A program made the translations under genes and the position numbers. The notes under the pieces were generated by a model. The model saw only the letters and a list, made by a program, of their open reading frames with translations. It was not told the origin of the DNA and ran no database searches. Shown here piece by piece: positions 9,218-60,866 of a stretch of 64,000 nt of DNA (its first letter is position 1; each line of letters begins with the position of its first letter). The stretch comes from a virus: IMG/VR virus record IMGVR_UViG_3300045988_131485, one strand, 5' to 3'.

Positions 9218-11023
9218 TTAATTACAAAGTGTTACGTATTCATACCCGGAGCTATCCGAGAAAAGATCCGCCTCCAAAAGTGAAACGAAATAGTTGCCAT
9301 AAGATACTGATGTATACCGGTCTTTCCGCGCACCTGGGCGTTCCTCAATCTTAATGAGGTTGGTCTGGTTCTGCACAGTATACTCCAACCCAATCATCTC
9401 ATTGATCAACGCCACTGTCTCAAGGAAAGGACGCTCATAGAAAAGTTGGGTATCTACATCGGCAGAGACATACTCAGGATACAAGCGCTGCAATTCTTCA
9501 ACGCCCTCTTGGTTGCTTACCATGAGTTCGATCATCCGGTTATTCAAACTATCCCGCATAGAGACAGCAATTTTGCTGTTCAGCTCCAAGGACGCCTTAA
9601 CCGAGAATACCGCCTCTTTCTGGCCTGCAATTACGATACGAGCTTTCAGCTTATCATCGTTCATACACGTCCAAGGTTCGTATTCTACGTTCCGATCTAC
9701 GTCATAAAGCACTTTAGCCAAAGCGTCGTAAATAGCGACACCCGCGTTTCGTGTATCCAAAACGCAATAATCCGCCTCAAAGTCAGCGAACAGCTGCTTA
9801 ATGCGAATGGCTTGTTTTGTCGTTTCAAATTCTGCCTGCGGCTCCATATAGACTACCTGCCGACGATATCCCTGCTTGACCTCAATATGATCTCCGCTGG
9901 TATCTGAGACCTTATACTCCTTGCTCTCAGGGAGAGCACGAATGCAAGTAAATACCGAGTTATCGTTGCCGGTACCGCCCTCCGGGGCAATATCGCACGC
10001 GATAATACGGATTTCTCCTGCCTGTTTGGGAATTGTGTGCTTTGCCTTGACCTTTGACAGTACGTCCTCGTTCTTCCTTGGATAAAACGGACGTTTCAAC
10101 ACGCGGTTCTTGTTCAGCATATCGTAGGTGAAGTAAGCATGAGCATTCTCGGCCACCATCTGATTTTCATACTCAATCGTCCAGGCAACCCTATCCAGCT
10201 TCTTTCGCTCCTTCACCAAGAAGTCACGGGTTTTAATCTCGTGCTTCAAAGCGATGCTGTAATCCATACCAATCAGAACAGATTTGCCCTTGCCCAACAT
10301 ATCGCGGGTCACGAGCTTCATGTAGTCCCACATCCAGTGAGATTTGTACCATGCAGAGCTGATATAGATTTCTTTCGGTTCCTCTTTCAGTTCTTTGTAC
10401 TCGTCGGGGTACTTGATTCTGAACGGAATCTGCCGCTGGAACAGCGTAGGAGAAAGAACCGTGTCGATAATGCTTTTCACAATCATACGGAACTCTTCAT
10501 AAATGAAGACTGTAGCACGGTATCCACGCACATTCTCATTGGCAACCAATACAACAATAGAGCTTCCGTTATTAAACTTCACTTCGATATCGTTCTGGTT
10601 GTCCTTGATGGTCTTAATCTCCTGTTGAAGCAACGGAGATCTTGGCAAAATCTCTTTGGCGATTTTTTCTGATACGATCAATCTCGCCTGCTTTTTTGTC
10701 GCCGAAGCTACGACGATCAATGATCCAGGCCGCAAAATTGCTTCTTTACAGGCATAGACCGCAATGATAAATGACTTTGCCGCACTACGAGCGGCCACAA
10801 TGCAGATACTCGGAAAAATATCCATCAGATACAAAATGATGTGCTGATAGAGATACAGTGTGATTCCGAAATACCGCTGCACAAAGCGGCTGGGATTCCT
10901 TCGCCAAAACGTTATCCAATCCAATAGCTTTTTGACAAACTCAGGGTCGTTCAATTTGCTATTGGGTGAGAAATGTTCATGAACGTGTTTTTGCCGCCCA
11001 TCCATCAACGCTTCGTAATCCAT
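9218..11023 (-). CDS. terL: terminase large subunit
   Basis: 601 aa. Has an N-terminal ATPase-like segment (YQHIILYLM...IVAARSAAKS) and C-terminal nuclease-like acidic motifs. Position is upstream of the portal. Confidence 0.8.
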   Translation of the reverse strand: MDYEALMDGRQKHVHEHFSPNSKLNDPEFVKKLLDWITFWRRNPSRFVQRYFGITLYLYQHIILYLMDIFPSICIVAARSAAKSFIIAVYACKEAILRPGSLIVVASATKKQARLIVSEKIAKEILPRSPLLQQEIKTIKDNQNDIEVKFNNGSSIVVLVANENVRGYRATVFIYEEFRMIVKSIIDTVLSPTLFQRQIPFRIKYPDEYKELKEEPKEIYISSAWYKSHWMWDYMKLVTRDMLGKGKSVLIGMDYSIALKHEIKTRDFLVKERKKLDRVAWTIEYENQMVAENAHAYFTYDMLNKNRVLKRPFYPRKNEDVLSKVKAKHTIPKQAGEIRIIACDIAPEGGTGNDNSVFTCIRALPESKEYKVSDTSGDHIEVKQGYRRQVVYMEPQAEFETTKQAIRIKQLFADFEADYCVLDTRNAGVAIYDALAKVLYDVDRNVEYEPWTCMNDDKLKARIVIAGQKEAVFSVKASLELNSKIAVSMRDSLNNRMIELMVSNQEGVEELQRLYPEYVSADVDTQLFYERPFLETVALINEMIGLEYTVQNQTNLIKIEERPGARKDRYTSVSYGNYFVSLLEADLFSDSSGYEYVTLCN

Positions 11024-14437: not shown

Positions 14438-14528
14438 TGGCTGGGGTAGCAGGACTCGAACCTGCGGTCGAGGGTAAACCTCTTGTCGGAGTCAAAGTCC
14501 GATGCCTTACCAGCTTGGCGATACCCCA
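14438..14528 (-). tRNA. tRNA-Gln (TTG) with atypical long variable arm
   Basis: The 5' half TGGGGTATCGCCAAGCTGGTAAGGCA closely matches bacterial tRNA-Gln. Loop is CTTTGAC. A ~20-nt variable region CAAGAGGTTTACCCTCGACC can form a GAGG/CCTC stem. CCA is encoded. Confidence 0.7.
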
Positions 14529-15480: not shown

Positions 15481-15492
15481 ATATAGATCTAC

Positions 15493-15598
15493 GAGACGCA
15501 TTCTTAACGACACCACATTTGTTCGGCATATGCTTAGTTAAAGGCGATGATTTTTCTATTTCAAGTAGAATTGTTTTCAAAATTGCTGTTAGCGTCTC
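15493..15598 (-). ncRNA. free-standing helix-TAACAGCAAT element (106 nt) in tRNA precursor
   Basis: Minus sense is GAGACGC-TAACAGCAAT-(~80 nt)-AAT-GCGTCTC. The terminal 7-bp helix closes the domain. It carries the same junction sequences as the tRNA inserts at 53.4-54.9 kb. Confidence 0.55.
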
Positions 15599-15605
15599 AA
15601 AATAC

Positions 15606-15662
15606 GGAACACGGTTGTTCTTTTTCCCATAAAAAGTTTTTGAAAGTTGCTGTACGTGCCCC
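15606..15662 (-). ncRNA. free-standing helix-GTACAGCAAC element (57 nt) in tRNA precursor
   Basis: Minus sense is GGGGCAC-GTACAGCAAC-(~30 nt)-GTGTTCC. The helix includes two G-U pairs. It sits 5 nt after the upstream tRNA and 7 nt before the next element. Confidence 0.5.
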
Positions 15663-15667
15663 AAAAA

Positions 15668-15742
15668 TGGTAGAAGATGCCGGACTCGAACCGTTCTTCC
15701 TGCTCCCTGGGCAGGCGTGCTACCGTTATCACTACATCCTCT
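15668..15742 (-). tRNA. tRNA-like gene with atypical anticodon loop CCAGGGA (formal anticodon AGG, Pro)
   Basis: Good acceptor (AGAGGAT/ATCTTCT), T-loop TTCGAGT and encoded CCA. The anticodon stem CCTGC/GCAGG encloses CCAGGGA, with C at position 33 and A at 34. Confidence 0.55.
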
Positions 15743-15747
15743 ATATA

Positions 15748-16176
15748 TGGTGGAGCCGAGGGGAATCGAACCCCTGTCCGAAATCCCTACATGAATAAAA
15801 CAGTCTTACGCAATAGACAACACTTTATCAATTCGCCTCAAACTGAGACGGGCGGATCAGCAGTTGTCACTCCGCGCCCAGGGCACACCGGTTAGATGCA
15901 CCTCCACCACCTTGTTTCTTTTCACAGTGACAAGGAAAACTGCAATACTCTGACCGAATCTTCGACCTCAGATGTTTACCCGGTCAGTGGGTACATCGTT
16001 TTGGAATCCAGCCGTCATCAGGCGGCAATTCCCTTTGCTGCAAGAGCAGCGGAAAAAGCGGGATGGATCATTACAACAGTCGTATCGTTGTCATTTCATT
16101 TTTGTTTAAGCCTTGAGGCGGTCTTCTACCTGCGAGTCTTACTCTCTCAGAACCCCGTCGAACCCATTACGGCCCC
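15748..16176 (-). ncRNA. ssrA: tmRNA (transfer-messenger RNA)
   Basis: Minus-sense 5' end is GGGGCCGTAATGGGTTCGACGGGG. The 3' end is GGACAGGGGTTCGATTCCCCTCGGCTCCACCA. The acceptor has a G3-U70 pair. An internal tag frame reads ...NDNDTTVVMIHPAFSAALAAKGIAA followed by TGA TGA. Confidence 0.9.
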
Positions 16177-16456: not shown

Positions 16457-16593
16457 ATATTACGGCAGACGCATCTGCCGTAATAGCTGTACGTCCGAAA
16501 AACCTCGTCTGCAGCCGATAGGCTTTTGGCTGAGATAGCAGTAAAAGTAATGAGCTGAACCGCACAAACGCCAACTTAGCCAATACAGCATAG

Positions 16594-27049: not shown

Positions 27050-27820
27050 TTAAATATCCCCTAACAGGTCGATTGAAACATCGTGGTAGGCTTTCTTCTC
27101 TTCCTCGTCAGCGATACCGATATAACGCATGGTGATGAGAGCGCTGGAATGACCGAAAAGACGCTGGAGGAACACAATGTCGTGGTTACTCTGGTAGTGG
27201 AAGTATCCGAAAGTCTTCCGCAGGGTATGGGTACCGATGTTCTGCTTGATCCCGCAAGCCTTAGCCGCATCCTTCAACTTCTTGCGCAGGGTGTCCACTT
27301 CAATGTGACCACCTTCACGGGAAGCGAAGATATATCCATCAGAGTAGTGGCCGGCATCGTTACCATAGTACCACTGAATAGCGTGGACACAGGATTCATT
27401 CAGATAGAGTCCACGTCGCTTGTCTACCTTCTCCTGAAAGACTGAGATTTTGTCGGTGGTATCGGTGTAGTCTCCAACAATGTAGCGGATCTTGCCGTCA
27501 GGGAAGAAAATATCAGAACACTTCAGTTCCAGAAGCTCGTTGGCTCTGAGGCCGAGGTTGATACCCAAGATGAATGCCAGCAGGTATTTGGGATCAGCAT
27601 TGGCCCGTAGCCAAGAGGCCATAGCGTCAAGCTGCTCACGAGACTTGATCGGGAAAACCGTCTGCTCTTCTCCTTTGCGGTAGTTGACCTTCTTGGGAGG
27701 CTCGACAGCAGAGGTACCGGGGAACTGAATGATTTTACAGCTGGTCGGCGGTACGGTATTGATCTGAGGAGCCGTAGGCTGATCAAAGAGGGTAAGTTGC
27801 GTGTCCATAGTCCACCTCAT
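27050..27820 (-). CDS. tyrosine recombinase / phage integrase
   Basis: C-terminal HTLRKTFG...LFGHSSALITMRYI carries the R..H..R..Y catalytic signature of the XerC/D-integrase family. Confidence 0.9.
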   Translation of the reverse strand: MRWTMDTQLTLFDQPTAPQINTVPPTSCKIIQFPGTSAVEPPKKVNYRKGEEQTVFPIKSREQLDAMASWLRANADPKYLLAFILGINLGLRANELLELKCSDIFFPDGKIRYIVGDYTDTTDKISVFQEKVDKRRGLYLNESCVHAIQWYYGNDAGHYSDGYIFASREGGHIEVDTLRKKLKDAAKACGIKQNIGTHTLRKTFGYFHYQSNHDIVFLQRLFGHSSALITMRYIGIADEEEKKAYHDVSIDLLGDI

Positions 27821-51882: not shown

Positions 51883-52800
51883 ATGATCCGTAACAAATTC
51901 TTTGAAGACCCGGACGGCGGCTATGCTAAGGTAGGCGTCAAGAAAAACTTTGATATCGCCTGGAAAAAGGTTCTGGCCTATGAAGAGCAGACAGGCCAAT
52001 CGCTGGACAATGGCTTTACTAAGGAACAGTATGTGTCCATGTTCAACTCCATGAGGGTTCGTCACACCAGCATTTTCTTCAACTATAAAAGCCATGTGAT
52101 GAGCTATGTGCGATATCTGATTGCCAATGGCGTGCTGCCGGCAGAACAGGAAAGCATTTTGGCCTCCGTCACTGTGGACGACCTGAAAATCAACGAGACC
52201 AGCGGAGTGCAATACTACAAGAACTTGGGTATGCTCCACCAGGCAATCCAGGATTCCATCAAAGTGTCCGAGTGCTACGATGAAACCTTGTTTGACCTGC
52301 CCGCTGTAATTCTTTTCCTGGCTTGGTTTGGATTGACCGAAGAGCAGATCATCAATTTCCCCAAGGAAGATGTGCTTGATGACGGCGTGATGATAAACGG
52401 TGAGAAGACCGAGATGCCGTTTGAAATCTTGCAGATATTCAAGCGTCTGAGGGATGCAGAGGGATACTACCAGCAGGCCAGAGGCGTAATCTTCCGTGCC
52501 TATGTCTATTCAGATAACCTGATTCGGACGGAGCGGAACAGCAAGATCAACGTCTCTAAGATGCAGGGTCTGGTAAATCGTCTGAATACCCTGATGGACG
52601 GTGCCTACTCGCTACGGTACAACGTAATACACCAGTCCGGTATATTCTACCGTGCTCATCTGCTGGAATGCGAGAGTACCCAGTTCAATCTGGAAGACCC
52701 GGAGTTTGCGTCTAAGGTGTTTTGCGAGGATCTGTCCAGCAAGGTCAAGCACACAGCCCGGATCAGAGACTACAAGCTCTACAAGCAACTATTCTACTAA
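51883..52800 (+). CDS. hypothetical protein (weak resemblance to tyrosine-recombinase fold, catalytic residues not evident)
   Basis: 305 aa. The LAWFGLTEEQIINF segment resembles the box-I region of integrases, but I see no RHRY signature. Confidence 0.5.
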   Translation: MIRNKFFEDPDGGYAKVGVKKNFDIAWKKVLAYEEQTGQSLDNGFTKEQYVSMFNSMRVRHTSIFFNYKSHVMSYVRYLIANGVLPAEQESILASVTVDDLKINETSGVQYYKNLGMLHQAIQDSIKVSECYDETLFDLPAVILFLAWFGLTEEQIINFPKEDVLDDGVMINGEKTEMPFEILQIFKRLRDAEGYYQQARGVIFRAYVYSDNLIRTERNSKINVSKMQGLVNRLNTLMDGAYSLRYNVIHQSGIFYRAHLLECESTQFNLEDPEFASKVFCEDLSSKVKHTARIRDYKLYKQLFY

Positions 52801-52866: not shown

Positions 52867-53172
52867 ATGAGATTCCGTAAAAACGCCGTCCCCGTACCTG
52901 TTACCCGCGATCTCCTGCAGGAAAAGCAGACTGAGATTGCTCGTCTGGCTCGTCAGGCAAGCGAGGCGGTAGACATCGTTACCAGAACAATGAATGAGCT
53001 GGAGGGTATCAACCAGCAGATCGACAACGACCTGGCTGAGATCGACACCTATTCCAAGGAACTGGCCGCGACACGCGCCGCCATGTCCCAGCAGCGGAAG
53101 AACAATACCGCTATCATCGCCAACTTCGCAAAGCTCCTGGATACCAGTCCCGCAGAGAGCGTGAGTGAGTAA
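52867..53172 (+). CDS. hypothetical coiled-coil protein
   Basis: ORF-track 52822..53172 starts inside P21. The ATG at 52867 follows GAGGAG. Confidence 0.55.
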   Translation: MRFRKNAVPVPVTRDLLQEKQTEIARLARQASEAVDIVTRTMNELEGINQQIDNDLAEIDTYSKELAATRAAMSQQRKNNTAIIANFAKLLDTSPAESVSE

Positions 53173-53198
53173 TTCATTCGGTTGACCAACCGGAGTAT

Positions 53199-53255
53199 GA
53201 GGCGCTAACAGCAATTTTACAACTATCAAACTTTTACTTTGACTCAATGCGTCTC
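53199..53255 (+). ncRNA. free-standing helix-TAACAGCAAT element (57 nt)
   Basis: GAGGCGC-TAACAGCAAT-(~30 nt)-CAAT-GCGTCTC. The 7-bp closing helix has one G-U pair. It lies 12 nt upstream of tRNA-Ser. Confidence 0.5.
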
Positions 53256-53267
53256 GTTGAAAAGCGT

Positions 53268-53358
53268 GGAGGGGTAATCCTAACTGGTAAGGAAGCAGTT
53301 TGCTAAACTGTTAGTAATCCGAAAGGGTGTGTGGGTTCGAGTCCCATCCCCTCCGCCA
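53268..53358 (+). tRNA. tRNA-Ser (GCT), class II
   Basis: Acceptor GGAGGGG/CCCCTCC, discriminator G, loop TTGCTAA, long variable arm, encoded CCA. Confidence 0.85.
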
Positions 53359-53441
53359 AGCCGCAATAGCGGCGAACTCTTTATCACCTCCTCTCTCTGA
53401 CGGCGGGAAAGACCGCTGACGGCCCGGAAAGACGGGCGGCA

Positions 53442-53553
53442 TGGGAGCGTCCGGTGGCAGCTCATAACGTGTAATCGACGGTGGACACGCACAGCAATTT
53501 TACCTTGAAAGTCTGCAAAACTTTTGCTTACGGTTCGACTCCGTAGCTCCTAA
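53442..53553 (+). tRNA. tRNA-like gene (Cys-GCA-type anticodon arm) carrying the conserved helix insert
   Basis: Acceptor TGGGAGC/GCTCCTA, T-arm TACGG-TTCGACT-CCGTA, intact anticodon arm AAAGT-CTGCAAA-ACTTT. Between the D region and the anticodon arm lies CATAA-CGTGT-(12 nt)-ACACG-CACAGCAAT. No CCA is encoded. Confidence 0.55.
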
Positions 53554-53758
53554 AAAACCGTCATCAATCTATAAGAAGGGTCGTGTGTGTCATGAAGAAG
53601 TTCCTGGCTATCGTTCTGTGATTCAAAGTGATCAGCGGCAGCGGCGTCCAGCGCCGGGTATGTGGAGAAAGCCATGAATAGAATACGAGACAAGCCCTAA
53701 GTCATCTTCGGATGACAGTACAGTAATGAATGCGACGATGAATGAACAGTAACGAATT

Positions 53759-53813
53759 GGGGCACTAACAGCAACCATCAACATTACCTGCTTTGGAAAT
53801 GAGAATGTGTCCC
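53759..53813 (+). ncRNA. free-standing helix-TAACAGCAAC element (55 nt)
   Basis: GGGGCAC-TAACAGCAAC-(~28 nt)-AAT-GTGTCCC. The 7-bp closing helix has one G-U pair. Confidence 0.5.
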
Positions 53814-53824
53814 GTACACGTGGC

Positions 53825-53836
53825 AAAGAGCCATTT
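53825..53836. repeat. left 12-bp inverted repeat AAAGAGCCATTT
   Basis: Exact reverse complement of 54973-54984. It encodes KWLF on the minus strand. Confidence 0.8.
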
Positions 53837-54043
53837 CATTGCCATCAACTTGTCCTCGAAGAACGCCTTAGTGAAGCGCTGAGAGATGTCGTGCTCGCTG
53901 GCGCTACGGAGAGATGCCACAGCGAAATTGAGATCCAGGAGAGCCTTGCCGGTAGTGCGGAAGCCGACTGCACCGTTCTCGGTGACAGAGACATTGCACT
54001 CGTTATTCAGCGTGCTCTTGATCCCATCCATAAAGTTACTCAT
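53825..54043 (-). pseudogene. N-terminal 73-codon fragment of DUF2828/vWA gene (detached by inversion)
   Basis: MSNFMDGIKSTLNNECNVSVTENGAVGFRTTGKALLDLNF...DKLMAMKWLF, with an AGGAGG RBS. After KWLF the frame runs into unrelated sequence. Confidence 0.65.
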
Positions 54044-54073
54044 TATCTCTTACCTCCTATATTGAGATACCCA

Positions 54074-54109
54074 GGACACACTTTTTATTTACTGTTGCTG
54101 TTTATGCCC
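54074..54109 (-). ncRNA. short helix-TAAACAGCAAC element (36 nt, weak)
   Basis: Minus sense is GGGCA-TAAACAGCAAC-(15 nt)-TGTCC. The helix is only 5 bp. Confidence 0.3.
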
Positions 54110-54116
54110 AGAGAAA

Positions 54117-54240
54117 TGGAGCGGCAGGTAGGACTCGAACCTACGAATGGCAGCTTGGCTTCCTTGAACATTGCTGTTAGCGGAACTCCTCGTTTCGCAT
54201 TGTAATAGGGCTGCTGTGTTGACCACTTCACCACTGCCGC
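54117..54240 (-). tRNA. tRNA-like gene (Gly-like acceptor/discriminator) carrying the conserved helix insert
   Basis: Acceptor GCGGCAG/CTGCCGC, discriminator U, CCA encoded, T-arm GTAGG-TTCGAGT-CCTAC. The stem GCAGC/GCTGC encloses 57 nt including AAT-GCGAAAC-GAGGA-GTTCCGC-TAACAGCAAT. Confidence 0.55.
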
Positions 54241-54379
54241 ATGAAGCTCGTCTTTCCGAGCCGTCACAACCCAGTTCAAGATATTTGGGTTGAATATCTG
54301 GCGTTTACCGTCAGCATAGACATAAACGATCCCAAAGCCCTATGCCTATCCGCCCATTAGCAGGGACGGCTTCTGCTTG

Positions 54380-54496
54380 TGCCAGGGGTGGGACTCGAAC
54401 CCACGACCACGGGATTAACAGTCCATAGAAAGTTGCTGTAAGCGTCTCAACAAGACACGCATTAGTACGCGCTCTGTCCGACTGAGCTACCCTGGC
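54380..54496 (-). tRNA. tRNA-like gene (Asn-GTT-type anticodon loop) carrying the conserved helix insert
   Basis: Acceptor GCCAGGG/CCCTGGC, canonical D-arm GCTCAGTCGGACAGAGC, and GGA-CTGTTAA-TCCCG. The 43-nt insert TACTAAT-GCGTGTC-TTGTT-GAGACGC-TTACAGCAAC-TTTCTAT splits the 5' strand of the anticodon stem (CG / GGA). No CCA is encoded. Confidence 0.6.
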
Positions 54497-54764
54497 GTAC
54501 GCCCCGCCGTAGCGGGGCTATTTTGCATGACCCCTCTTATGTGCATTTTCTACTCAAACCCAGCCGTATAATACGGCAAACAGTTATACCGATCGGTTCG
54601 GCTTCCCGCACTATTATGGCTGGCGGCGAACCAGGTTTTCACCGTACTGTAAATTATCGGGGTCGAGATAATGACATACGGCAAGGAACAACAGACAAGC
54701 AAACCCATATTCAACATTAGTCTGTCGCACCTCCTTTTTTTTGTAACTACACTAAGTAGCTTGT

Positions 54765-54888
54765 TGCAAGGAGTGGGACTCGAACCCACGACAATCAGTT
54801 CCCTTTTTACATAGCTGTTAGCGCAACTGGGGGAGGGGAACGTTACGCATTTTTTATACTGGTGCTCTACCAACTGAGCTACCCTTGC
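54765..54888 (-). tRNA. tRNA-like gene (identity unclear) carrying the conserved helix insert
   Basis: Acceptor GCAAGGG/TCCTTGC, canonical D-arm and T-arm. The anticodon region is replaced by ...AAAAAAT-GCGTAAC-(14 nt)-GTTGCGC-TAACAGCTAT.... No CCA is encoded. Confidence 0.55.
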
Positions 54889-54972
54889 ATGGTGGGAGGC
54901 TTTTTCATTGCTGTCTGCGTTGCTCTGTACGCATACGAATACGGAAACCTCCCAGAAACCGCTATATCCGTA

Positions 54973-54984
54973 AAATGGCTCTTT
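54973..54984. repeat. right 12-bp inverted repeat AAATGGCTCTTT
   Basis: Exact reverse complement of 53825-53836. It encodes KWLF on the plus strand. Confidence 0.8.
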
Positions 54985-56322
54985 TATGCTCGTGATGTCC
55001 GTGGTGGCCTGGGCGAGCGCCGGCTGTTCCGCGCCTGTATGGTGCCTCTGGCGAAGGAGTTTTCCGAGTACGTCGCCCCTGTGGTGGCACTGGTACCTGA
55101 GTACGGTCGCTGGGACGATCTGTGGTGCCTGCTGGATACGCCCGTGTGTGACTGTGTGACCGGGCTGGTCAAAGAGCAGCTTTATGACGACGCCCAAAAT
55201 GCGGCAGAGGGCAAACCCATTTCTCTTTTGGCAAAGTGGATGCCCCGCTGCAAGACTTCTTCCAAGCAAACTCGGCATTATGCCCAGATTTTGCGGAAGG
55301 CTGTCGGCATGACTGAGCGCCAGTATCAGCACACCCTCGCCAATCTCTCCCGTTATCTGCTCGTTGTGGAGCAGCAGATGACCGCCAAGCAGTGGGAGGA
55401 AATCGACTATCAGCGTGTCCCCTCTCGTGCCAACCTGCAGTACAACAGCGCTTTCCTCCGTCACGACGAGGATCGCCGACGTGCATTCCTGGGTGCTGTG
55501 GAGAAAGGCGAGGCCAAGATCAACGCTTCTGTTCTCTTCCCGCATGACATCGTACATCGGTACGGTTATGCCGGCAGCACCGACGCCAATCTGGAAGTGC
55601 TGTGGAAGAACCTCCCCGATACGGTGCAGGGCTGTGGTAACACCATCGTGGTGGCCGACGGTTCTGGTAGTATGAGAGTGAGAGTCGGCAATACTGATGT
55701 GTCTGCGCTGGAAGTAGCAAACTCTCTGGCGATCTACTTCGCCGAGCGTTCTTCTGGTCAGTTCAAGGATCAGTACATCACCTTCTCTGAACATCCTCAG
55801 CTGGTCGATTTGAGCAGAGGCAAGAACCTTCGTGAGAAACTGCGGATCGCTGCTACCCATAACGAGGTTGCCAACACCAACATCGAGGCCGTATTCGACC
55901 TGATCCTCACTACGGCGATCAACAAGCACATGGATCAGAGCGATCTTCCCGCGAACATCCTTATCATCTCTGATATGGAGTTCGATGGTTGTGCAACCAC
56001 CGGCGCAATCTCCCATGATAGGTGGGGATATAGCAGACGGGTCGCACCTACTCCCCGCCTGTTTGAGGTAATCGCCCAGCGGTATGCGGAAGCCGGATAT
56101 CAGATTCCTCGTCTGGTATTCTGGAATGTCAACTCCCGTAGCGGCACCATTCCTGTTAAGGAGAACGATTTGGGTGTTGCGTTGGTCAGCGGTTTCTCTC
56201 CCAATATCGCCAAGATGGTAATGAGCGGCCAGACTGATCCTTATGACTGCCTGTTGGAGGCCATCAACGCAGAGCGGTATCAGCAGGTGGACGATGCCCT
56301 TCGTCCTATTATCTCCGCATAA
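54973..56322 (+). pseudogene. C-terminal 449-codon part of DUF2828/vWA (Ro60-like architecture) gene
   Basis: KWLFYARDVRGGLGERRLF... with a vWA MIDAS motif VVADGSGSM. The ORF-track N-terminus (MLYQLSYP...) is a read-through of the antisense tRNA-like gene, and there is no start or RBS at the true junction. Confidence 0.65.
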
Positions 56323-57598: not shown

Positions 57599-57607
57599 GT
57601 GAATATA

Positions 57608-59007
57608 ATGTATTGTGCCTATGTTACCAGGATTCACAATCTGAGGAAGCATACCAATGCCGACCGGCTGCTCTGTGGCGAATGTTTCGGTAATACGGTG
57701 ATTGTGGATCTCGGCACCGACCCTGATCAGCTGGGCGTGTACTTCCCTACCGATGGCAAACTCGGTTTGGAGTTCGCACAGAAGAATGACTTGCTGCGGC
57801 GCAAGGATGAGAACGGCGCTCCGGCTGGCGGATACCTTGACCCGGAGAAGCGGAATATTAAGGCTCTCAAGCTCCGGGGCGAGAAGAGCGACGGTCTGTT
57901 CCTCCCTCTCTCCTGTTTAGCTTCTTTTACCGATATCAAGAAGCTCCAAGAGGGCGATACGATCTCTGTGTTGAACGGTATCACTATCTGCGAGAAGTAC
58001 GTACCCGCCGTCAAACGCGCCTCCGGTAGTGGGGGGGTGGCAATCATGTTCGTAAGCGTTCTGATCCTATCTCCCCGCTCTTCCAAGAACACGCTGACAC
58101 GGAGCAGTTGGCCTACAACCTCTCCGCATTCCATGCTGGGGATCTGGTAGAAGTTACCCTGAAAATGCACGGAACTTCTCAGCGTACCGGCTATCTGCCT
58201 GTGTTGCAGGGCTATAAATATCGGAACCGTATGGAAAAGCGGCTCTATGAGAGTCGTAAGACCCCGAATGTGATTCGTTCCAAAATCAAGCGGGCACCCA
58301 TCTATGATTGGGGCTATGTTACCGGAACCCGCCGCGTGGTTCTGGATACCTTCGATGAGGGAGGCTTCTACGGTAATAACGCTTTCCGCGAAAAACACGC
58401 CAACGTCTTTGAAGGAAAGCTCCACAAGGGAGAGACGGTCTACTACGAGGTTGTTGGCTTCACTGACGATGGTACGCCCATCATGAATCCCGGAAACAAC
58501 TCTAAGCTGAACGACAAGGAGTTTACTAAACAGTACGGTAAAACCACCACATTCAGCTATGGCTGCGCTCCCGATGGTAAGGAACATCCCAAGTCCGATC
58601 TTTTCGTTTACCGCATGACAATGACCAACGAAGACGGTGATGTGGTGGAGTATCCGCCCGACTTTATGCGCTATCGTTGCGAACAGATGGGCGTCAAATG
58701 CGTCCAAGTGTTCTGCCGCACTATCATCCCGGACTTCTACCAGCTCCCCGACGATGTTGGATCTCCGCAGGCAGTGAACGCCGGCGAGTATGTGAAGAAG
58801 CTGGCTGAGAATTTCTACGACGGCCCCGATCCTGTCGGCCATACCCATGTTCGGGAAGGTGTCGTGTGCCGTATTGTCAACCGTCCCAAGTTCGCCGCCT
58901 ATAAGCATAAAAACTTTGCGTTCAAGGCGCTGGAGGGACTGATCAAAGACACCGCCGCCGCGCCTGATATGGAAGAAGCTCAGGATGTTGGAGAACAGAA
59001 TGGATGA
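57608..59007 (+). CDS. ATP-dependent RNA ligase (DraRnl/Rnl5-like), reading frame broken at a G7 run
   Basis: The N-terminal OB-like domain (57608-58036) is in one frame. The nucleotidyltransferase part, with motif I EVTLKMHGTS, is in the -1 frame (open from 58036). GGGGGGG at 58031-58037 is the junction. Confidence 0.65.
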
Positions 59008-59951: not shown

Positions 59952-60866
59952 ATGCCGATGTTTTACATGATGGTTGGCCTCCCTGGTAGCGGGAAGTCAT
60001 TCACTGCCGAAAGCATCCCTAACGCCGTCGTCCACTCCAGCGATGCGATCCGTGCCGAAGTTCTTGGTGACGAGAACGACCAAACCCAACAGGACTTGGT
60101 TTTCCAAACCCTTCACAAAAGGGTTTTGCAGGATCTGGTGGATGGCAAGGATGTGGTGTACGACGCAACCAATATCAACTACAAGCGCCGTATCGGATTC
60201 CTTGATCGTATCCGAGCGCTCCACAAACATGATTTGCGTACAGTATGTCTTTTCATGGCGACGCCCTATGAGGTGTGTTTGGAGCGCAACAATAATCGGG
60301 AACGTTCTGTCCCGGAGTCTGTAATCCAAAAGATGTACTTCAAATTCGATGTTCCTATGATGGCAGAGGGTTGGGATGAAATCAGGATCGTGGGTGACGA
60401 AGATCGCCACGACCAGATTGATACCCTTATGCTTCGTCTCTCCAAGCTGGAACATGATAACCCGCACCATGAGTACACGGTTGGTCAGCACTCTATGACG
60501 GCATGGCAGTATCTGATCAGCCACTATAAAGGTGCCGATGCTGCTCTGCTCCGCGCCACGCTGTTGCACGATATTGGCAAAGAAAAGACTAAAGTATTTC
60601 ATAACATCAAAGGCAACCCCACTGAGATCGCCCACTTCTATCATCATGAGCGTGTAGGAGCTTATGACAGCTTCTGCTATACCGGCGATCTCAGTCCTAA
60701 CCAGCGCCTTACTGTGGCGCTGCTGATCCGCTGGCATATGTGGCCGTATGCGGTTGAAAAGTCAGATAATCCGAGTAAGACGGTTAGCAAAATCAAACGT
60801 CTGCTTGGTAATGATATCTGGAACCAGGTCATGGTGTTGAACGCCTGTGACCGCAATGCACACTGA
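59952..60866 (+). CDS. P-loop kinase fused to HD-domain phosphohydrolase (polynucleotide kinase/phosphatase-like)
   Basis: N-terminal MVGLPGSGKSF Walker A plus DATN. C-terminal HEYTVGQH...LLHDIGK...HHERVGAY are HD-domain motifs. Confidence 0.7.
   Translation: MPMFYMMVGLPGSGKSFTAESIPNAVVHSSDAIRAEVLGDENDQTQQDLVFQTLHKRVLQDLVDGKDVVYDATNINYKRRIGFLDRIRALHKHDLRTVCLFMATPYEVCLERNNNRERSVPESVIQKMYFKFDVPMMAEGWDEIRIVGDEDRHDQIDTLMLRLSKLEHDNPHHEYTVGQHSMTAWQYLISHYKGADAALLRATLLHDIGKEKTKVFHNIKGNPTEIAHFYHHERVGAYDSFCYTGDLSPNQRLTVALLIRWHMWPYAVEKSDNPSKTVSKIKRLLGNDIWNQVMVLNACDRNAH
60782..60817 (+). promoter_or_regulatory. degenerate class-A motif (P22) inside CDS 3' end
   Basis: GGTTAGCAAAATCAAACGTCTGCTTGGTAATGATAT, about 65 nt upstream of the ATG at 60883. 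Confidence 0.35.

What the first reader, a model, noticed from the sequence alone, without database searches (positions are those of the whole stretch)
53199..54888. Conserved helix plus TAACAGCAAY module inserted into four tRNA-like genes and also present as circularly permuted stand-alone RNAs
Four genes have clean tRNA acceptor, D and T arms: 53442-53553 (+), 54117-54240 (-), 54380-54496 (-) and 54765-54888 (-).

Each carries a 43-57-nt insertion in or next to the anticodon stem with one shared design: (T/C)A-rich-AAT, a 5-7-bp hairpin, then T(A/T)ACAGC(A/T)A(Y).

The hairpin stems differ in sequence but stay paired:
- GCGAAAC/GTTCCGC
- GCGTGTC/GAGACGC
- GCGTAAC/GTTGCGC
- CGTGT/ACACG
That is compensatory covariation, and it argues for a selected RNA structure.

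In the Asn-type copy the insert splits the 5' strand of the anticodon stem (CG | GGA-CTGTTAA-TCCCG). That is not a known bacterial intron position, and the insert is far too short for a group I intron.

The same local sequences also occur in the opposite topology. The order is 5' helix strand, TAACAGCAAY, a 15-80-nt domain, AAT, then the 3' helix strand. This form appears at 53199-53255, 53759-53813 and 54074-54109, and in the other tRNA array at 15493-15598 and 15606-15662.

So the helix-junction module exists in two forms. In one it is closed by a loop and carries a tRNA body. In the other it is opened at the loop and closes a small domain. That is a circular-permutation relationship like the one between tRNA and tRNA-mimicking Y RNAs.

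Canonical Cys, Gly and Asn tRNAs already exist in the main array, so these copies look like specialised RNAs rather than decoding tRNAs. Candidate roles are protein-binding scaffolds, decoys for anticodon nucleases, or substrates of a protein-dependent splicing/repair system. I know of no described element of this kind.
Basis: seen in the sequence. Interest (0 to 1): 0.92.

Follow-up and report, generated by a model that had tools for sequence, protein, structure and literature searches.

The report
Phage Ro60-partner RNAs with shared handle
The odd "interrupted tRNAs" and small hairpin RNAs share one conserved handle (a 7-bp helix followed by ACAGCAA), and this handle marks a widespread, apparently undescribed set of Y-RNA-like partners encoded next to a phage Ro60-like protein, so they are not intron-containing tRNAs.

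Summary
Three insert-bearing tRNA-likes pass Rfam's tRNA threshold. The fourth has acceptor, T and anticodon arms but no D arm. The helix covaries, and the two topologies exist.

The RNAs sit beside a DUF2828/DUF7788 gene whose AlphaFold model matches Ro60/TROVE structures.

The "helix + (UA)ACAGCAA ... AAU + helix" module recurs in many phages:
- gut phages whose Ro-like proteins are 65-100% identical to this one;
- IMG/VR contigs with homologs down to 27% identity;
- Salmonella phage FO1a (Felix O1) and mycobacteriophage DirkDirk.

It is nearly always on the gene's strand and adjacent to it (57/103 validated loci against 0/107 chance hits). In DirkDirk and in a prophage-like contig the same module closes a YrlA-type permuted tRNA mimic. 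A third of stand-alone copies enclose an anticodon-stem-loop look-alike.

Best reading (confidence 0.6): the module is the Ro-like protein's RNA handle. The window's RNAs are Y-RNA-like tRNA mimics, with the handle capped and placed 5' of the anticodon arm. This is a new variant of a known kind. Binding is inferred, not shown.

Bonus: the three tRNA-likes and the gene's 5' end lie on a naturally polymorphic invertible segment with 12-bp inverted repeats. In this window the inversion splits the Ro-like gene.

The parts
54117..54240 (-). Gly-type tRNA mimic with encoded CCA. Layout: anticodon stem GCAGC/GCUGC; module AAU 54201-54199; helix GCGAAAC 54198-54192 / GUUCCGC 54186-54180; UAACAGCAA 54179-54171; then a linker and the conserved AAGCCAA.
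   Evidence: Rfam tRNA 49.5 bits with a 54-nt insert. CM R2 E 7.8e-10. Orthologs in L045, L046, L049 and L050 show helix covariation.
54380..54496 (-). Asn-type tRNA mimic. A 43-nt module lies between positions 28 and 29 of the anticodon stem. The stem-loop GGA-CUGUUAA-UCC is intact 3' of the module.
   Evidence: Rfam tRNA 46.3 bits. CM R2 at 54428-54469, E 3.6e-7. Orthologs keep a 5-bp stem and 7-nt loop with U33 and R37, but the anticodon varies: GUU, UGG, UUU, AGG, GAG.
54765..54888 (-). 'C' tRNA mimic, a paralog of the Asn-type copy. Module helix GCGUAAC/GUUGCGC with a 14-nt loop, then UAACAGCUA. It has no canonical anticodon loop.
   Evidence: Rfam tRNA 49.8 bits. CM R2 at 54807-54857, E 2.8e-8. 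Direct repeats D1 and D3 shared with the Asn-type copy.
53442..53553 (+). Cys-type tRNA-like RNA with an acceptor stem, the module hairpin CGUGU/ACACG + C ACAGCAA, the stem-loop AAAGU-CUGCAAA-ACUUU, and a T arm. It has no D arm.
   Evidence: Consensus fold of 5 orthologs. CM R2 at 53460-53502, E 0.007. Not found by Rfam tRNA or ARAGORN.
53196..53258 (+). Stand-alone element. Helix AUGAGGCGC 53197-53205 / GCGUCUCGU 53249-53257; UAACAGCAA 53206-53214; internal anticodon-arm look-alike UCAAA-CUUUUAC-UUUGA 53226-53242; AAU 53246-53248.
   Evidence: CM R1 63.8 bits, E 2e-13. Fold z-score -3.0.
53756..53816 (+). Stand-alone element. Helix UGGGGCAC 53758-53765 / GUGUCCC(G) 53807-53814; UAACAGCAA 53766-53774.
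   Evidence: CM R1 43.5 bits, E 2.8e-8. In relative L031 its loop carries a ~540-nt insertion containing an ORF.
54074..54109 (-). Short stand-alone element GGGCAU-AA-ACAGCAA-...-GUGUCC. In the canonical orientation it lies in the 5' UTR directly before the ribosome-binding site of the Ro-like gene.
   Evidence: Read from the sequence. Orthologous copies occur before the gene in L045, L046 and L050. Not detected by CM R1.
54903..54941 (-). Weak hairpin-form copy upstream of the 'C' RNA: UAU-GCGU-ACAGAGCA-ACGC-AG-ACAGCAAUG.
   Evidence: CM R2 E 1.2. Conserved at the same place in L045, L046, L049 and L050.
15492..15598 (-). Stand-alone element in the main tRNA array. Helix GAGACGC/GCGUCUC, UAACAGCAA, internal UUCUA-CUUGAAA-UAGAA.
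   Evidence: CM R1 32.1 bits, E 2e-5. Sequence.
15603..15665 (-). Stand-alone element in the main tRNA array. Helix GGGGCACG/CGUGUUCC, UACAGCAA, internal CUUUU-UAUGGGA-AAAAG.
   Evidence: CM R1 25 bits, E 1.3e-3. Sequence.
54973..56322 (+). Ro60-like protein gene (DUF2828 + DUF7788/vWA), part fixed outside the invertible segment (from KWLFYARDVRGG... to the stop codon).
   Evidence: Pfam and PHROG phrog_850. AlphaFold2 model with Foldseek: the top 6 PDB hits are all Ro60/TROVE.
53825..54043 (-). N-terminal 73 codons of the same Ro60-like gene, carried on the invertible segment and inverted in this window.
   Evidence: phrog_850 profile positions 1-69. The gene is contiguous in all related contigs.
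53825..54984 (.). Invertible DNA segment bounded by perfect 12-bp inverted repeats AAAGAGCCATTT (53825-53836) and AAATGGCTCTTT (54973-54984).
   Evidence: Inverted repeat I12. Opposite orientation in ~20 IMG/VR contigs. This window's orientation is on 15 contigs; four places from four different sample accessions were shown.
57599..59007 (+). RNA ligase gene (phrog_968), frameshifted in this window.
59952..60866 (+). Polynucleotide-kinase-like P-loop kinase (AAA_33/KTI12) fused to an HD phosphohydrolase domain.
   Evidence: The synteny is conserved in L045, L046, L047, L049 and L050.

Best explanation
The 7-bp helix with its flanking single strands (A-rich/AAU on one side, (UA)ACAGCAA on the other) is the recognition handle of the RNA partners of the phage's Ro60-like protein (DUF2828 + vWA). 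This makes it the functional counterpart of the Ro-binding stem of Y RNAs.

The handle carries different cargo domains:
- In stand-alone RNAs the helix is formed by the 5' and 3' ends. It encloses an A/U-rich loop, often an anticodon-stem-loop look-alike, a whole tRNA, or a permuted YrlA-type tRNA mimic.
- In the window's four tRNA-likes the helix is capped by a loop, and the whole handle sits 5' of the anticodon arm of an otherwise normally ordered tRNA body.

The inserts are therefore retained parts of tRNA-mimic Y-like RNAs, not introns. The resulting RNPs most likely work with the neighbouring RNA ligase and kinase/phosphatase in tRNA or RNA surveillance and repair during infection.

Shown: the structure, its covariation, its spread across phages, the genetic linkage to the Ro-like gene, and the Ro60 fold of the protein.

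Inferred: direct binding, retention of the insert, and the repair role.
For: 1. Protein. The neighbouring gene is DUF2828 + DUF7788. Its AlphaFold2 model (pLDDT 75) has as its six best PDB matches only Ro60/TROVE proteins, at probability 1.00 and full length. Homologs are annotated 'Ro-like RNA binding protein' in mycobacteriophages.

2. Linkage.
- Gut-phage relatives with Ro-like proteins of 65-80% identity (L045, L046, L048-L052) each carry several copies (3 to 9), on the gene's strand, in the gene-free stretch upstream.
- In IMG/VR scans, 57 of 103 loci with a helix-validated element hold a DUF2828 homolog (27-80% identity). None of 107 loci with chance matches do.
- 64 of 65 elements are on the gene's strand. 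49 lie upstream (median 195 nt) and 16 just downstream.

3. Tie to known Y RNAs.
- In DirkDirk the outer helix plus A-GCAGCAA encloses the stretch that Rfam YrlA hits at E 3e-6.
- L083 has the same helix plus U-ACAGCAA around a T arm, closed acceptor and D arm.
- FO1a has four elements downstream of gp42, one enclosing a permuted tRNA mimic.
[quoted passage not shown] ACAGCAA sits at the same place.

4. Structure under selection.

5. Not decoders. The Gly-type and 'C' RNAs cannot give a canonical loop. Relative L047 has tRNA-likes with a 5-nt loop and no module.
Against: - There are no binding or expression data.
- The canonical bacterial Ro-binding motif GNCGAAN0-1G is absent, and Rfam YrlA does not hit anything in the window.
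- Two good copies lie 38 kb from the gene, in the main tRNA array.
- 22 validated IMG/VR loci with at least 2.5 kb of downstream sequence show no Ro-like gene.
- L047, whose Ro-like protein is 68% identical, lacks ACAGCAA.
- The Asn-type and Cys-type RNAs keep a canonical 5-bp stem and 7-nt loop with U33 and R37 across orthologs. That would also fit tRNAs that decode after the insert is removed.
- The neighbouring ligase and kinase are exactly what a cut-and-rejoin pathway would need.
Confidence: 0.6

Rival explanations
1. The inserts are protein-dependent intervening sequences. An endonuclease recognises the helix plus ACAGCAA, cuts on both sides, and the neighbouring RNA ligase and kinase/phosphatase rejoin the halves to give working tRNAs. 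In the stand-alone form the same signals would release or circularise the enclosed RNA.
For: - Precise removal of the 43 nt from the Asn-type RNA gives a perfect tRNA-Asn(GUU). In all orthologs the split 5' strand still complements the 3' strand and the 7-nt loop keeps U33 and R37.
- An RNA ligase and a kinase + HD phosphatase are conserved neighbours.
- The two topologies are what an intron and a permuted intron-exon would look like.
Against: - The Gly-type copies keep AAGCCAA with no U33. The 'C' copies keep A(A/U)GGGGA-like ends. Neither gives a canonical loop for any cut site.
- The Cys-type RNA lacks a D arm.
- I found no bulge-helix-bulge pairing at the junctions, by inspection only.
- No endonuclease candidate was identified.
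- Rfam finds no intron family.
- The module also forms the terminal stem of YrlA-type RNAs, a class already known as stable Ro partners.
- In this window the ligase is frameshifted.
Confidence: 0.15
2. The module is a processing, stability or transcription signal for long untranslated tRNA/ncRNA transcripts (an RNase site, end-protecting stem, or antitermination element). It is linked to the Ro-like gene only because that gene sits in tRNA islands.
For: - Elements are embedded in tRNA-rich regions: 55 of 115 have a tRNA within 500 nt, against 3 of 106 chance hits.
- Two copies are in the main array, far from the gene.
- In L048 the helix flanks a whole tRNA like a leader-trailer stem.
- One copy sits in the gene's 5' UTR.
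Against: - The linkage holds where no tRNA array is present. In DirkDirk the annotated 7.3-kb stretch lists no tRNA gene and an Rfam scan at E<=1 found none.
- A processing signal does not explain placement inside the anticodon arm of tRNA mimics, or the enclosed anticodon-arm look-alikes.
- Distant DUF2828 phages with tRNA arrays show no copy in the stretch examined (Enterococcus H1). This shows the signal is not a general feature of phage tRNA arrays.
Confidence: 0.15
3. The module is a selfish miniature mobile repeat (MITE/REP-like), or the target of the recombinase that inverts the segment, with no RNA-level role.
For: - There are many copies per genome, in several insertion positions and two arrangements.
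- The region is a hot spot for homing-endonuclease and ORF insertions in relatives.
- The window encodes a tyrosine recombinase.
Against: - The helix arms differ between copies yet stay complementary. That is the signature of selection on pairing, not on a protein-recognised terminal repeat.
- Orientation follows the transcribed strand (64/65).
- Orthologous copies stay at fixed positions across 65-100% protein identity.
- The inversion breakpoints are a different 12-bp repeat.
Confidence: 0.04

Closest known systems
Bacterial and phage Y RNAs YrlA/YrlB bound by Rsr (Ro60) (Rfam RF02553; Chen et al. 2014, PMC4201824)
   Same: - Small ncRNAs encoded next to a Ro60-type gene and on its strand.
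- A terminal stem with a conserved motif just 3' of its 5' strand.
- Modular cargo that mimics tRNA (T and D arms).
- A short form (like YrlB) and a tRNA-like form (like YrlA) side by side.
- In DirkDirk, L083 and FO1a the module closes a YrlA-type permuted mimic.
   Different: - The partner protein is the DUF2828 branch, which has no sequence-level hit to solved Ro60 structures.
- The motif is (UA)ACAGCAA, not GNCGAAN0-1G.
- Rfam YrlA finds nothing in the window.
- In the window the tRNA body is not permuted. Its acceptor end is open, with encoded CCA in the Gly-type copy, and the handle is a capped hairpin inside the anticodon arm.
- Many short forms enclose an anticodon-stem-loop look-alike.
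Thermus phage phiLo Ro60 with Yrl1/Yrl2 (PMC12135203)
   Same: A phage Ro60 homolog with two Y-like RNAs just upstream of the gene. It is the best structural match to the model of the window's protein (9kop, 9l5y).
   Different: phiLo Yrls were recognised by a CGAA motif and a stem-bulge-stem. No ACAGCAA motif, tRNA body or anticodon-arm mimic is reported there.
Felixounavirus Bas63 gp130 (PhageMaP preprint, PMC11482910)
   Same: The authors note that gp130 resembles Ro60, lies next to a run of tRNA genes, and that some of those 'tRNAs' may be Y RNAs. The window's protein is about 33% identical to Felixounavirus homologs, and FO1a carries four modules.
   Different: That paper gives no RNA motif or structure. 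It reports gp130 as a counter to the ppl defence system.
Archaeal/eukaryotic protein-spliced tRNA introns, permuted tRNA genes, and bacterial group I tRNA introns
   Same: Short inserts at non-canonical positions of tRNA genes. A circular-permutation relationship between forms. A ligase and a kinase are encoded nearby.
   Different: - I found no bulge-helix-bulge.
- The setting is bacterial or phage (tmRNA at 15748-16176).
- The inserts are far too short for group I introns, and Rfam finds no intron family.
- Two of the four RNAs cannot yield a canonical tRNA.
Phage T4 Pnkp/Rnl1 tRNA repair and the RtcB-Rsr-Y RNA operons (PMC7790460, PMC7824862)
   Same: A Ro-type protein, tRNA-like RNA, RNA ligase and end-healing kinase/phosphatase are encoded together.
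   Different: No RtcB or RtcR here. A class-V aminotransferase and a Band-7 protein are conserved neighbours. The function is untested.

Membership tests
Y RNA (Ro60 partner RNA) | Encoded within a few kb of a Ro60-type gene and on the same strand | tested here: met
   In the canonical orientation all eight local copies lie within ~1.8 kb upstream of the Ro-like gene on its strand. Across IMG/VR, 57/103 validated loci against 0/107 chance loci hold the gene, and 64/65 elements share its strand. The protein has a Ro60 fold.
Y RNA (Ro60 partner RNA) | Stem formed by the RNA's 5' and 3' ends, carrying the protein-binding site | tested here: met
   Met for the stand-alone forms, which have a covarying 7-9-bp closing helix. 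RNA ends were not mapped. In the four tRNA-likes the helix is capped by a loop instead.
Y RNA (Ro60 partner RNA) | Canonical Ro-binding motif (GGUCCGA in animals, GNCGAAN0-1G in bacteria) | tested here: not met
   The conserved motif is (UA)ACAGCAA or GCAGCAA at the equivalent position. No GNCGAA is conserved.
Y RNA (Ro60 partner RNA) | Physically bound by the Ro60 protein | not testable with these tools
   Needs RIP, CLIP or gel-shift assays.
YrlA (Rfam RF02553) | Score at or above the gathering threshold (69 bits); permuted order T arm - closed acceptor - D arm | tested here: not met
   No YrlA hit in window 53100-54950 at E<=1. Related RNAs in DirkDirk (39.8 bits) and L083 (21.6 bits) hit below threshold. 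The window's RNAs have normal tRNA order.
tRNA (decoding) | Cloverleaf recognised by tRNA models | tested here: met
   Three of four pass the Rfam RF00005 gathering score (46-50 bits). The fourth does not.
tRNA (decoding) | Uninterrupted 5-bp anticodon stem with a 7-nt loop, U33 and R37 | tested here: not met
   Inserts are 43-57 nt. ARAGORN calls none. Only the Asn-type and Cys-type copies keep a canonical loop, and only next to the insert. The Gly-type copy has AAGCCAA and the 'C' copy has AAAGGGA.
Group I intron in a tRNA gene | Intron of 200 nt or more in the anticodon loop with a conserved catalytic core | tested here: not met
   Inserts are 43-57 nt, and Rfam finds no intron family at E<=1.
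Bulge-helix-bulge (archaeal-type) tRNA intron | Two 3-nt bulges around a 4-bp helix at the exon-intron junctions | tested here: not met
   Inspection of the junction sequences found no such pairing. This was inspection only, with no dedicated program.
MITE/REP-type mobile repeat | Terminal inverted repeats of constant sequence, and copies at non-orthologous sites | tested here: not met
   Helix arms differ between copies and covary. Copies are orthologous across relatives.

The most novel reading that the evidence does not exclude
The Ro-like protein uses the helix-ACAGCAA handle to hold a panel of anticodon-arm look-alikes (UUU is the commonest; GUU, UUG, GAU, UUC and others occur) and full tRNA mimics. 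Some of these mimics keep aminoacylation identity features: the Gly-type RNA has G1-C72, C2-G71, G3-C70, U73, GCC and CCA. They would act as baits or decoys for host anticodon nucleases and other tRNA-targeting defences. The neighbouring ligase and kinase/phosphatase would reseal them or the real tRNAs. A DNA inversion would switch the whole device on and off.
Probability: 0.15. Interest if true: 0.9.

Novelty: new variant of a known kind. Interest (0 to 1): 0.62.

Why it matters
Ro60-like DUF2828 proteins occur in at least 701 sequenced phage records, including Felix O1-like, Listeria, Staphylococcus, Enterococcus, Vibrio, Campylobacter and mycobacterial phages. Their RNA ligands and their role are essentially unknown.

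A simple, searchable RNA signature (a covarying 7-bp helix plus ACAGCAA) that tracks these genes across very distant phages gives a concrete candidate ligand. It also makes direct tests possible in tractable phages such as Felix O1/Bas63 and LeBron-type mycobacteriophages.

The finding has practical use for annotation. It explains a class of 'broken' or over-long tRNA predictions in phage tRNA arrays.

It also shows that Y-RNA-type scaffolds can be built in at least four topologies:
- a mini form enclosing an anticodon-arm look-alike;
- around a whole tRNA;
- around a permuted tRNA mimic;
- capped and inserted into a normally ordered tRNA body.

The invertible segment that splits the Ro-like gene is a clear example of an intragenic inversion switch in a phage.

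Tried and rejected
- Recombination-site idea. I first suspected that the repeated motif was the site of the inversion that splits the Ro-like gene. The breakpoints are instead a separate perfect 12-bp inverted repeat.
- Phage promoter. Exact TAACAGCAA occurs only in the two RNA islands, never before protein genes. The consensus promoter and terminator scan is at background.
- Known RNA families. Rfam 15 at E<=1 gives only tRNA hits in 53.1-54.95 kb.
- Near-identical isolates. Megablast of 52-56 kb against 50,697 phage records found nothing. The lineage is an uncultured human-gut phage group.
- K-turn, loop E, CRISPR repeat, integron attC, retron, type III antitoxin repeats, nut/boxA. I compared these from memory with the consensus. 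None fits the conserved nucleotides, or else they require constant repeat sequences. None was tested with a tool.
- Pairing partner for ACAGCAA. No conserved UUGCUGU was found in the islands, by inspection. UAACAG is complementary to the Asn anticodon loop CUGUUA, and the MFE fold pairs them in one Asn-type element. This cannot hold for other anticodons.
- My first automatic helix finder was too permissive (21 of 29 motif sites) and I discarded it.
- A candidate copy at 16490(-) is better explained by a strong local hairpin.
- A sequence-profile search of the PDB with the Ro-like protein gave nothing. Only the fold search did.
- Distant DUF2828 phages Enterococcus H1 and Serratia BF show no module in the ±3.5 kb examined. 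Vibrio VH7D shows only one opposite-strand GCAGCAA match that I judged likely chance.

Full report
**What is in the sequence**

The window is phage DNA. It carries a terminase gene at 9218-11023, 22 tRNAs and a tmRNA at 12.1-16.7 kb, and a second small RNA island at 53.2-54.9 kb.

Rfam's tRNA model passes its threshold at 54765-54888(-), 54120-54240(-) and 54380-54496(-). Each has 54-56 nt where the anticodon loop should be. ARAGORN calls none of them.

The fourth candidate, 53442-53553(+), is not detected as a tRNA. Its five-ortholog consensus has an acceptor stem, the module hairpin, a 5-6-bp stem with a 7-nt loop, and a T arm, but no D arm.

The opposite topology (helix strand, UAACAGCAA, domain, AAU, helix strand) is present at 53196-53258, 53756-53816, 54074-54109(-), 15492-15598(-) and 15603-15665(-).

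**More than chance**

Covariance models built only from other phages recover the window's copies and nothing else in 64 kb.

- In 12 hairpin copies from relatives, 92.9% of helix cells pair against 69.6+-3.4 in shuffles, and 5 of 7 pairs show compensatory change.
- With anchors chosen independently of pairing, helix positions 4-7 pair in 108/136 cells against 69.5+-5.9.

ORF 54862-56322(+) is DUF2828 + DUF7788 (phrog_850, 'RNA-binding protein'), but it lacks the first ~61 profile positions. Those positions are encoded by a 92-codon ORF on the opposite strand at 54043-53765.

Comparison with ~20 IMG/VR contigs of 95-99% identity shows that segment 53825-54984 is inverted in the window. The breakpoints are a perfect 12-bp inverted repeat. 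In the relatives the gene is intact, and the three tRNA-likes lie directly upstream on its strand.

The window's orientation is not an artefact. The exact 92-aa product is on 15 other contigs, and the four places shown come from four different sample accessions. This is therefore a natural, polymorphic intragenic inversion.

An AlphaFold2 model of the intact protein (pLDDT 75) has as its six best PDB matches only Ro60/TROVE proteins: phage phiLo, D. radiodurans, Xenopus and human.

Conserved neighbours:
- a Band-7 protein;
- a class-V aminotransferase;
- an RNA ligase;
- a P-loop kinase fused to an HD phosphatase.

**The module is a family trait that travels with the Ro-like gene**

Relatives whose Ro-like proteins are 79, 71, 65, 77, 72, 68 and 67% identical (L045, L046, L048-L052) each carry several helix + ACAGCAA modules (3 to 9 each). 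All are on the gene's strand, in the 1-2 kb gene-free stretch upstream. They include orthologs of the Cys-, C-, Asn- and Gly-type RNAs with different but complementary helices.

- 115 of 225 pattern matches have all four unconstrained helix pairs.
- This gives 101 distinct elements with very diverse helices.
- 57 of 103 validated loci hold a DUF2828 homolog (27-80% identity), against 0 of 107 chance loci.
- 64 of 65 elements are on the gene's strand; 49 lie upstream (median 195 nt) and 16 just downstream.
- The elements also sit among tRNA genes: 55/115 against 3/106 have a tRNA within 500 nt.

**Link to known Y RNAs**

In mycobacteriophage DirkDirk ('Ro-like RNA binding protein', 36% identity), the helix UGGACUCU/GGAGUCCA plus A-GCAGCAA encloses the stretch that Rfam YrlA hits at E 3e-6. 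It is flanked by two stand-alone elements.

A prophage-like contig (L083) has the same trio, with U-ACAGCAA.

Salmonella phage FO1a (Felix O1) has four elements downstream of gp42. The fourth encloses a permuted tRNA mimic.

[quoted passage not shown] Phage Ro60 with adjacent Y-like RNAs is documented for phiLo (PMC12135203). For Bas63 it has been suggested that some 'tRNAs' next to the Ro60-like gp130 are Y RNAs (PMC11482910).

The window's RNAs are the unpermuted counterpart: an open acceptor end, with the handle capped and placed 5' of the anticodon arm.

**Cargo**

In both topologies ACAGCAA plus a ~6-11-nt linker lies just 5' of a stem-loop.

- 36 of 115 stand-alone elements contain a stem of at least 4 bp closing a Y-U-N-N-N-R-N loop, against 3.6+-1.9 in shuffles. 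UUU is the commonest 'anticodon'.
- Window examples are UCAAA-CUUUUAC-UUUGA, UUCUA-CUUGAAA-UAGAA and CUUUU-UAUGGGA-AAAAG.
- Asn-type orthologs keep stem and loop geometry but change the triplet: GUU, UGG, UUU, AGG, GAG.
- In L048 two elements enclose a whole tRNA or tRNA-like.

**Interpretation**

The most economical reading is that the helix with its flanking strands is the handle by which the Ro-like protein holds a set of modular RNAs. The four tRNA-likes would then be Y-RNA-like tRNA mimics, not interrupted tRNAs. I put this at about 0.6. Binding, insert retention and the link to the ligase and kinase are inferences.

A cut-and-rejoin (protein-spliced) reading keeps about 0.15. The Asn-type RNA would become a perfect tRNA, and the right enzymes are next door. 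However, two of the four RNAs cannot give a canonical loop, and the module forms terminal stems elsewhere.

A generic processing or stability signal of tRNA islands gets about 0.15. A mobile repeat or recombination site is essentially excluded by the covariation, the strand bias and the separate inversion repeats.

**Novelty**

Phage Ro60 homologs with tRNA-like Y RNAs are known, so this is not a new kind of system. I found no description of the following in Rfam 15 or in the papers I could search:
- the ACAGCAA handle specific to the DUF2828 branch;
- its spread from gut phages to Felix O1 and mycobacteriophages;
- the anticodon-arm mini forms;
- the capped handle inside a normally ordered tRNA body;
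- the inversion switch through the gene.

I rate it a new variant of a known kind, with interest 0.62.

Noticed in passing
window 53825-54984 (inverted repeats 53825-53836 and 54973-54984): An intragenic invertible segment. In this window the inversion separates the first 73 codons of the Ro60-like gene, together with three tRNA mimics, from the rest of the gene. About 20 related contigs have the intact orientation. The window's orientation recurs on 15 contigs, and the four places shown come from four different sample accessions.
   Followed up: yes
window 27050-27820 (-): A 256-aa tyrosine recombinase (Pfam Phage_integrase, E 3e-21). It is a candidate invertase for the segment 26 kb away. 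No shared site was looked for.
   Followed up: no
window 57599-59007 (+): The RNA ligase gene is split into two overlapping ORFs (183 + 299 aa) by a frameshift. It is a single ORF of 462-470 aa in 9 of 10 related contigs; L007 is also frameshifted. This could be a real inactivation or a sequencing error.
   Followed up: partly
window 53390-53441 (+) and 54245-54266 (-); also L045-L047: Hairpins with a GAAAGA loop (for example GGCCCG-GAAAGA-CGGGC and GCUCG-GAAAGA-CGAGC) lie immediately before the 5' ends of the Cys-type and Gly-type RNAs. They are conserved in relatives, with compensatory stem changes. Their function is unknown.
   Followed up: partly
window 15672-15741 (-): A tRNA-like RNA (Rfam tRNA 35.3 bits, not called by ARAGORN) between the tmRNA and the two stand-alone elements. 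Its 'anticodon' loop is CCAGGGA, without U33. It may be another tRNA mimic.
   Followed up: no
window 14438-14528 (-): tRNA-Gln(UUG) is 91 nt long because of a long variable arm (CAAGAGGUUUACCCUCGAC), which is unusual for a Gln tRNA.
   Followed up: no
protein P0002 (12 contigs, longest 193 kb): In some relatives the 3' end of the Ro-like gene is fused in frame to a tyrosine-integrase sequence. This suggests a mobile element has inserted into the gene.
   Followed up: no
L031 10080-10660 and 11260-11990; L017 8770-9200; L018, L034: The RNA island is a hot spot for insertions. One ORF of unknown function sits inside the loop of the stand-alone element equivalent to 53756-53816, flanked by a short direct repeat. 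A GIY-YIG-like endonuclease gene replaces the 5'-UTR element. Another ORF sits at the start of tRNA-Ser.
   Followed up: partly
L045 3230-3680, L046 3080-3460, L047 3500-3860: A conserved ~350-nt apparently structured non-coding stretch with an embedded T-arm-like hairpin lies between the tRNA mimics in relatives. It has no Rfam hit and is absent from the window.
   Followed up: no
L048 3194-3266: A tRNA with anticodon UUA, which would read the UAA stop codon, is enclosed by a helix + ACAGCAA element in an A/T-rich relative.
   Followed up: no
window 51883-52800 (+): The 305-aa protein upstream of the RNA island has only a weak MrpR core-binding hit. Its positional counterparts in L046, L050 and L051 are Band_7 (SPFH) proteins. 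A band-7-like gene also lies near the Ro-like gene of mycobacteriophage DirkDirk.
   Followed up: partly
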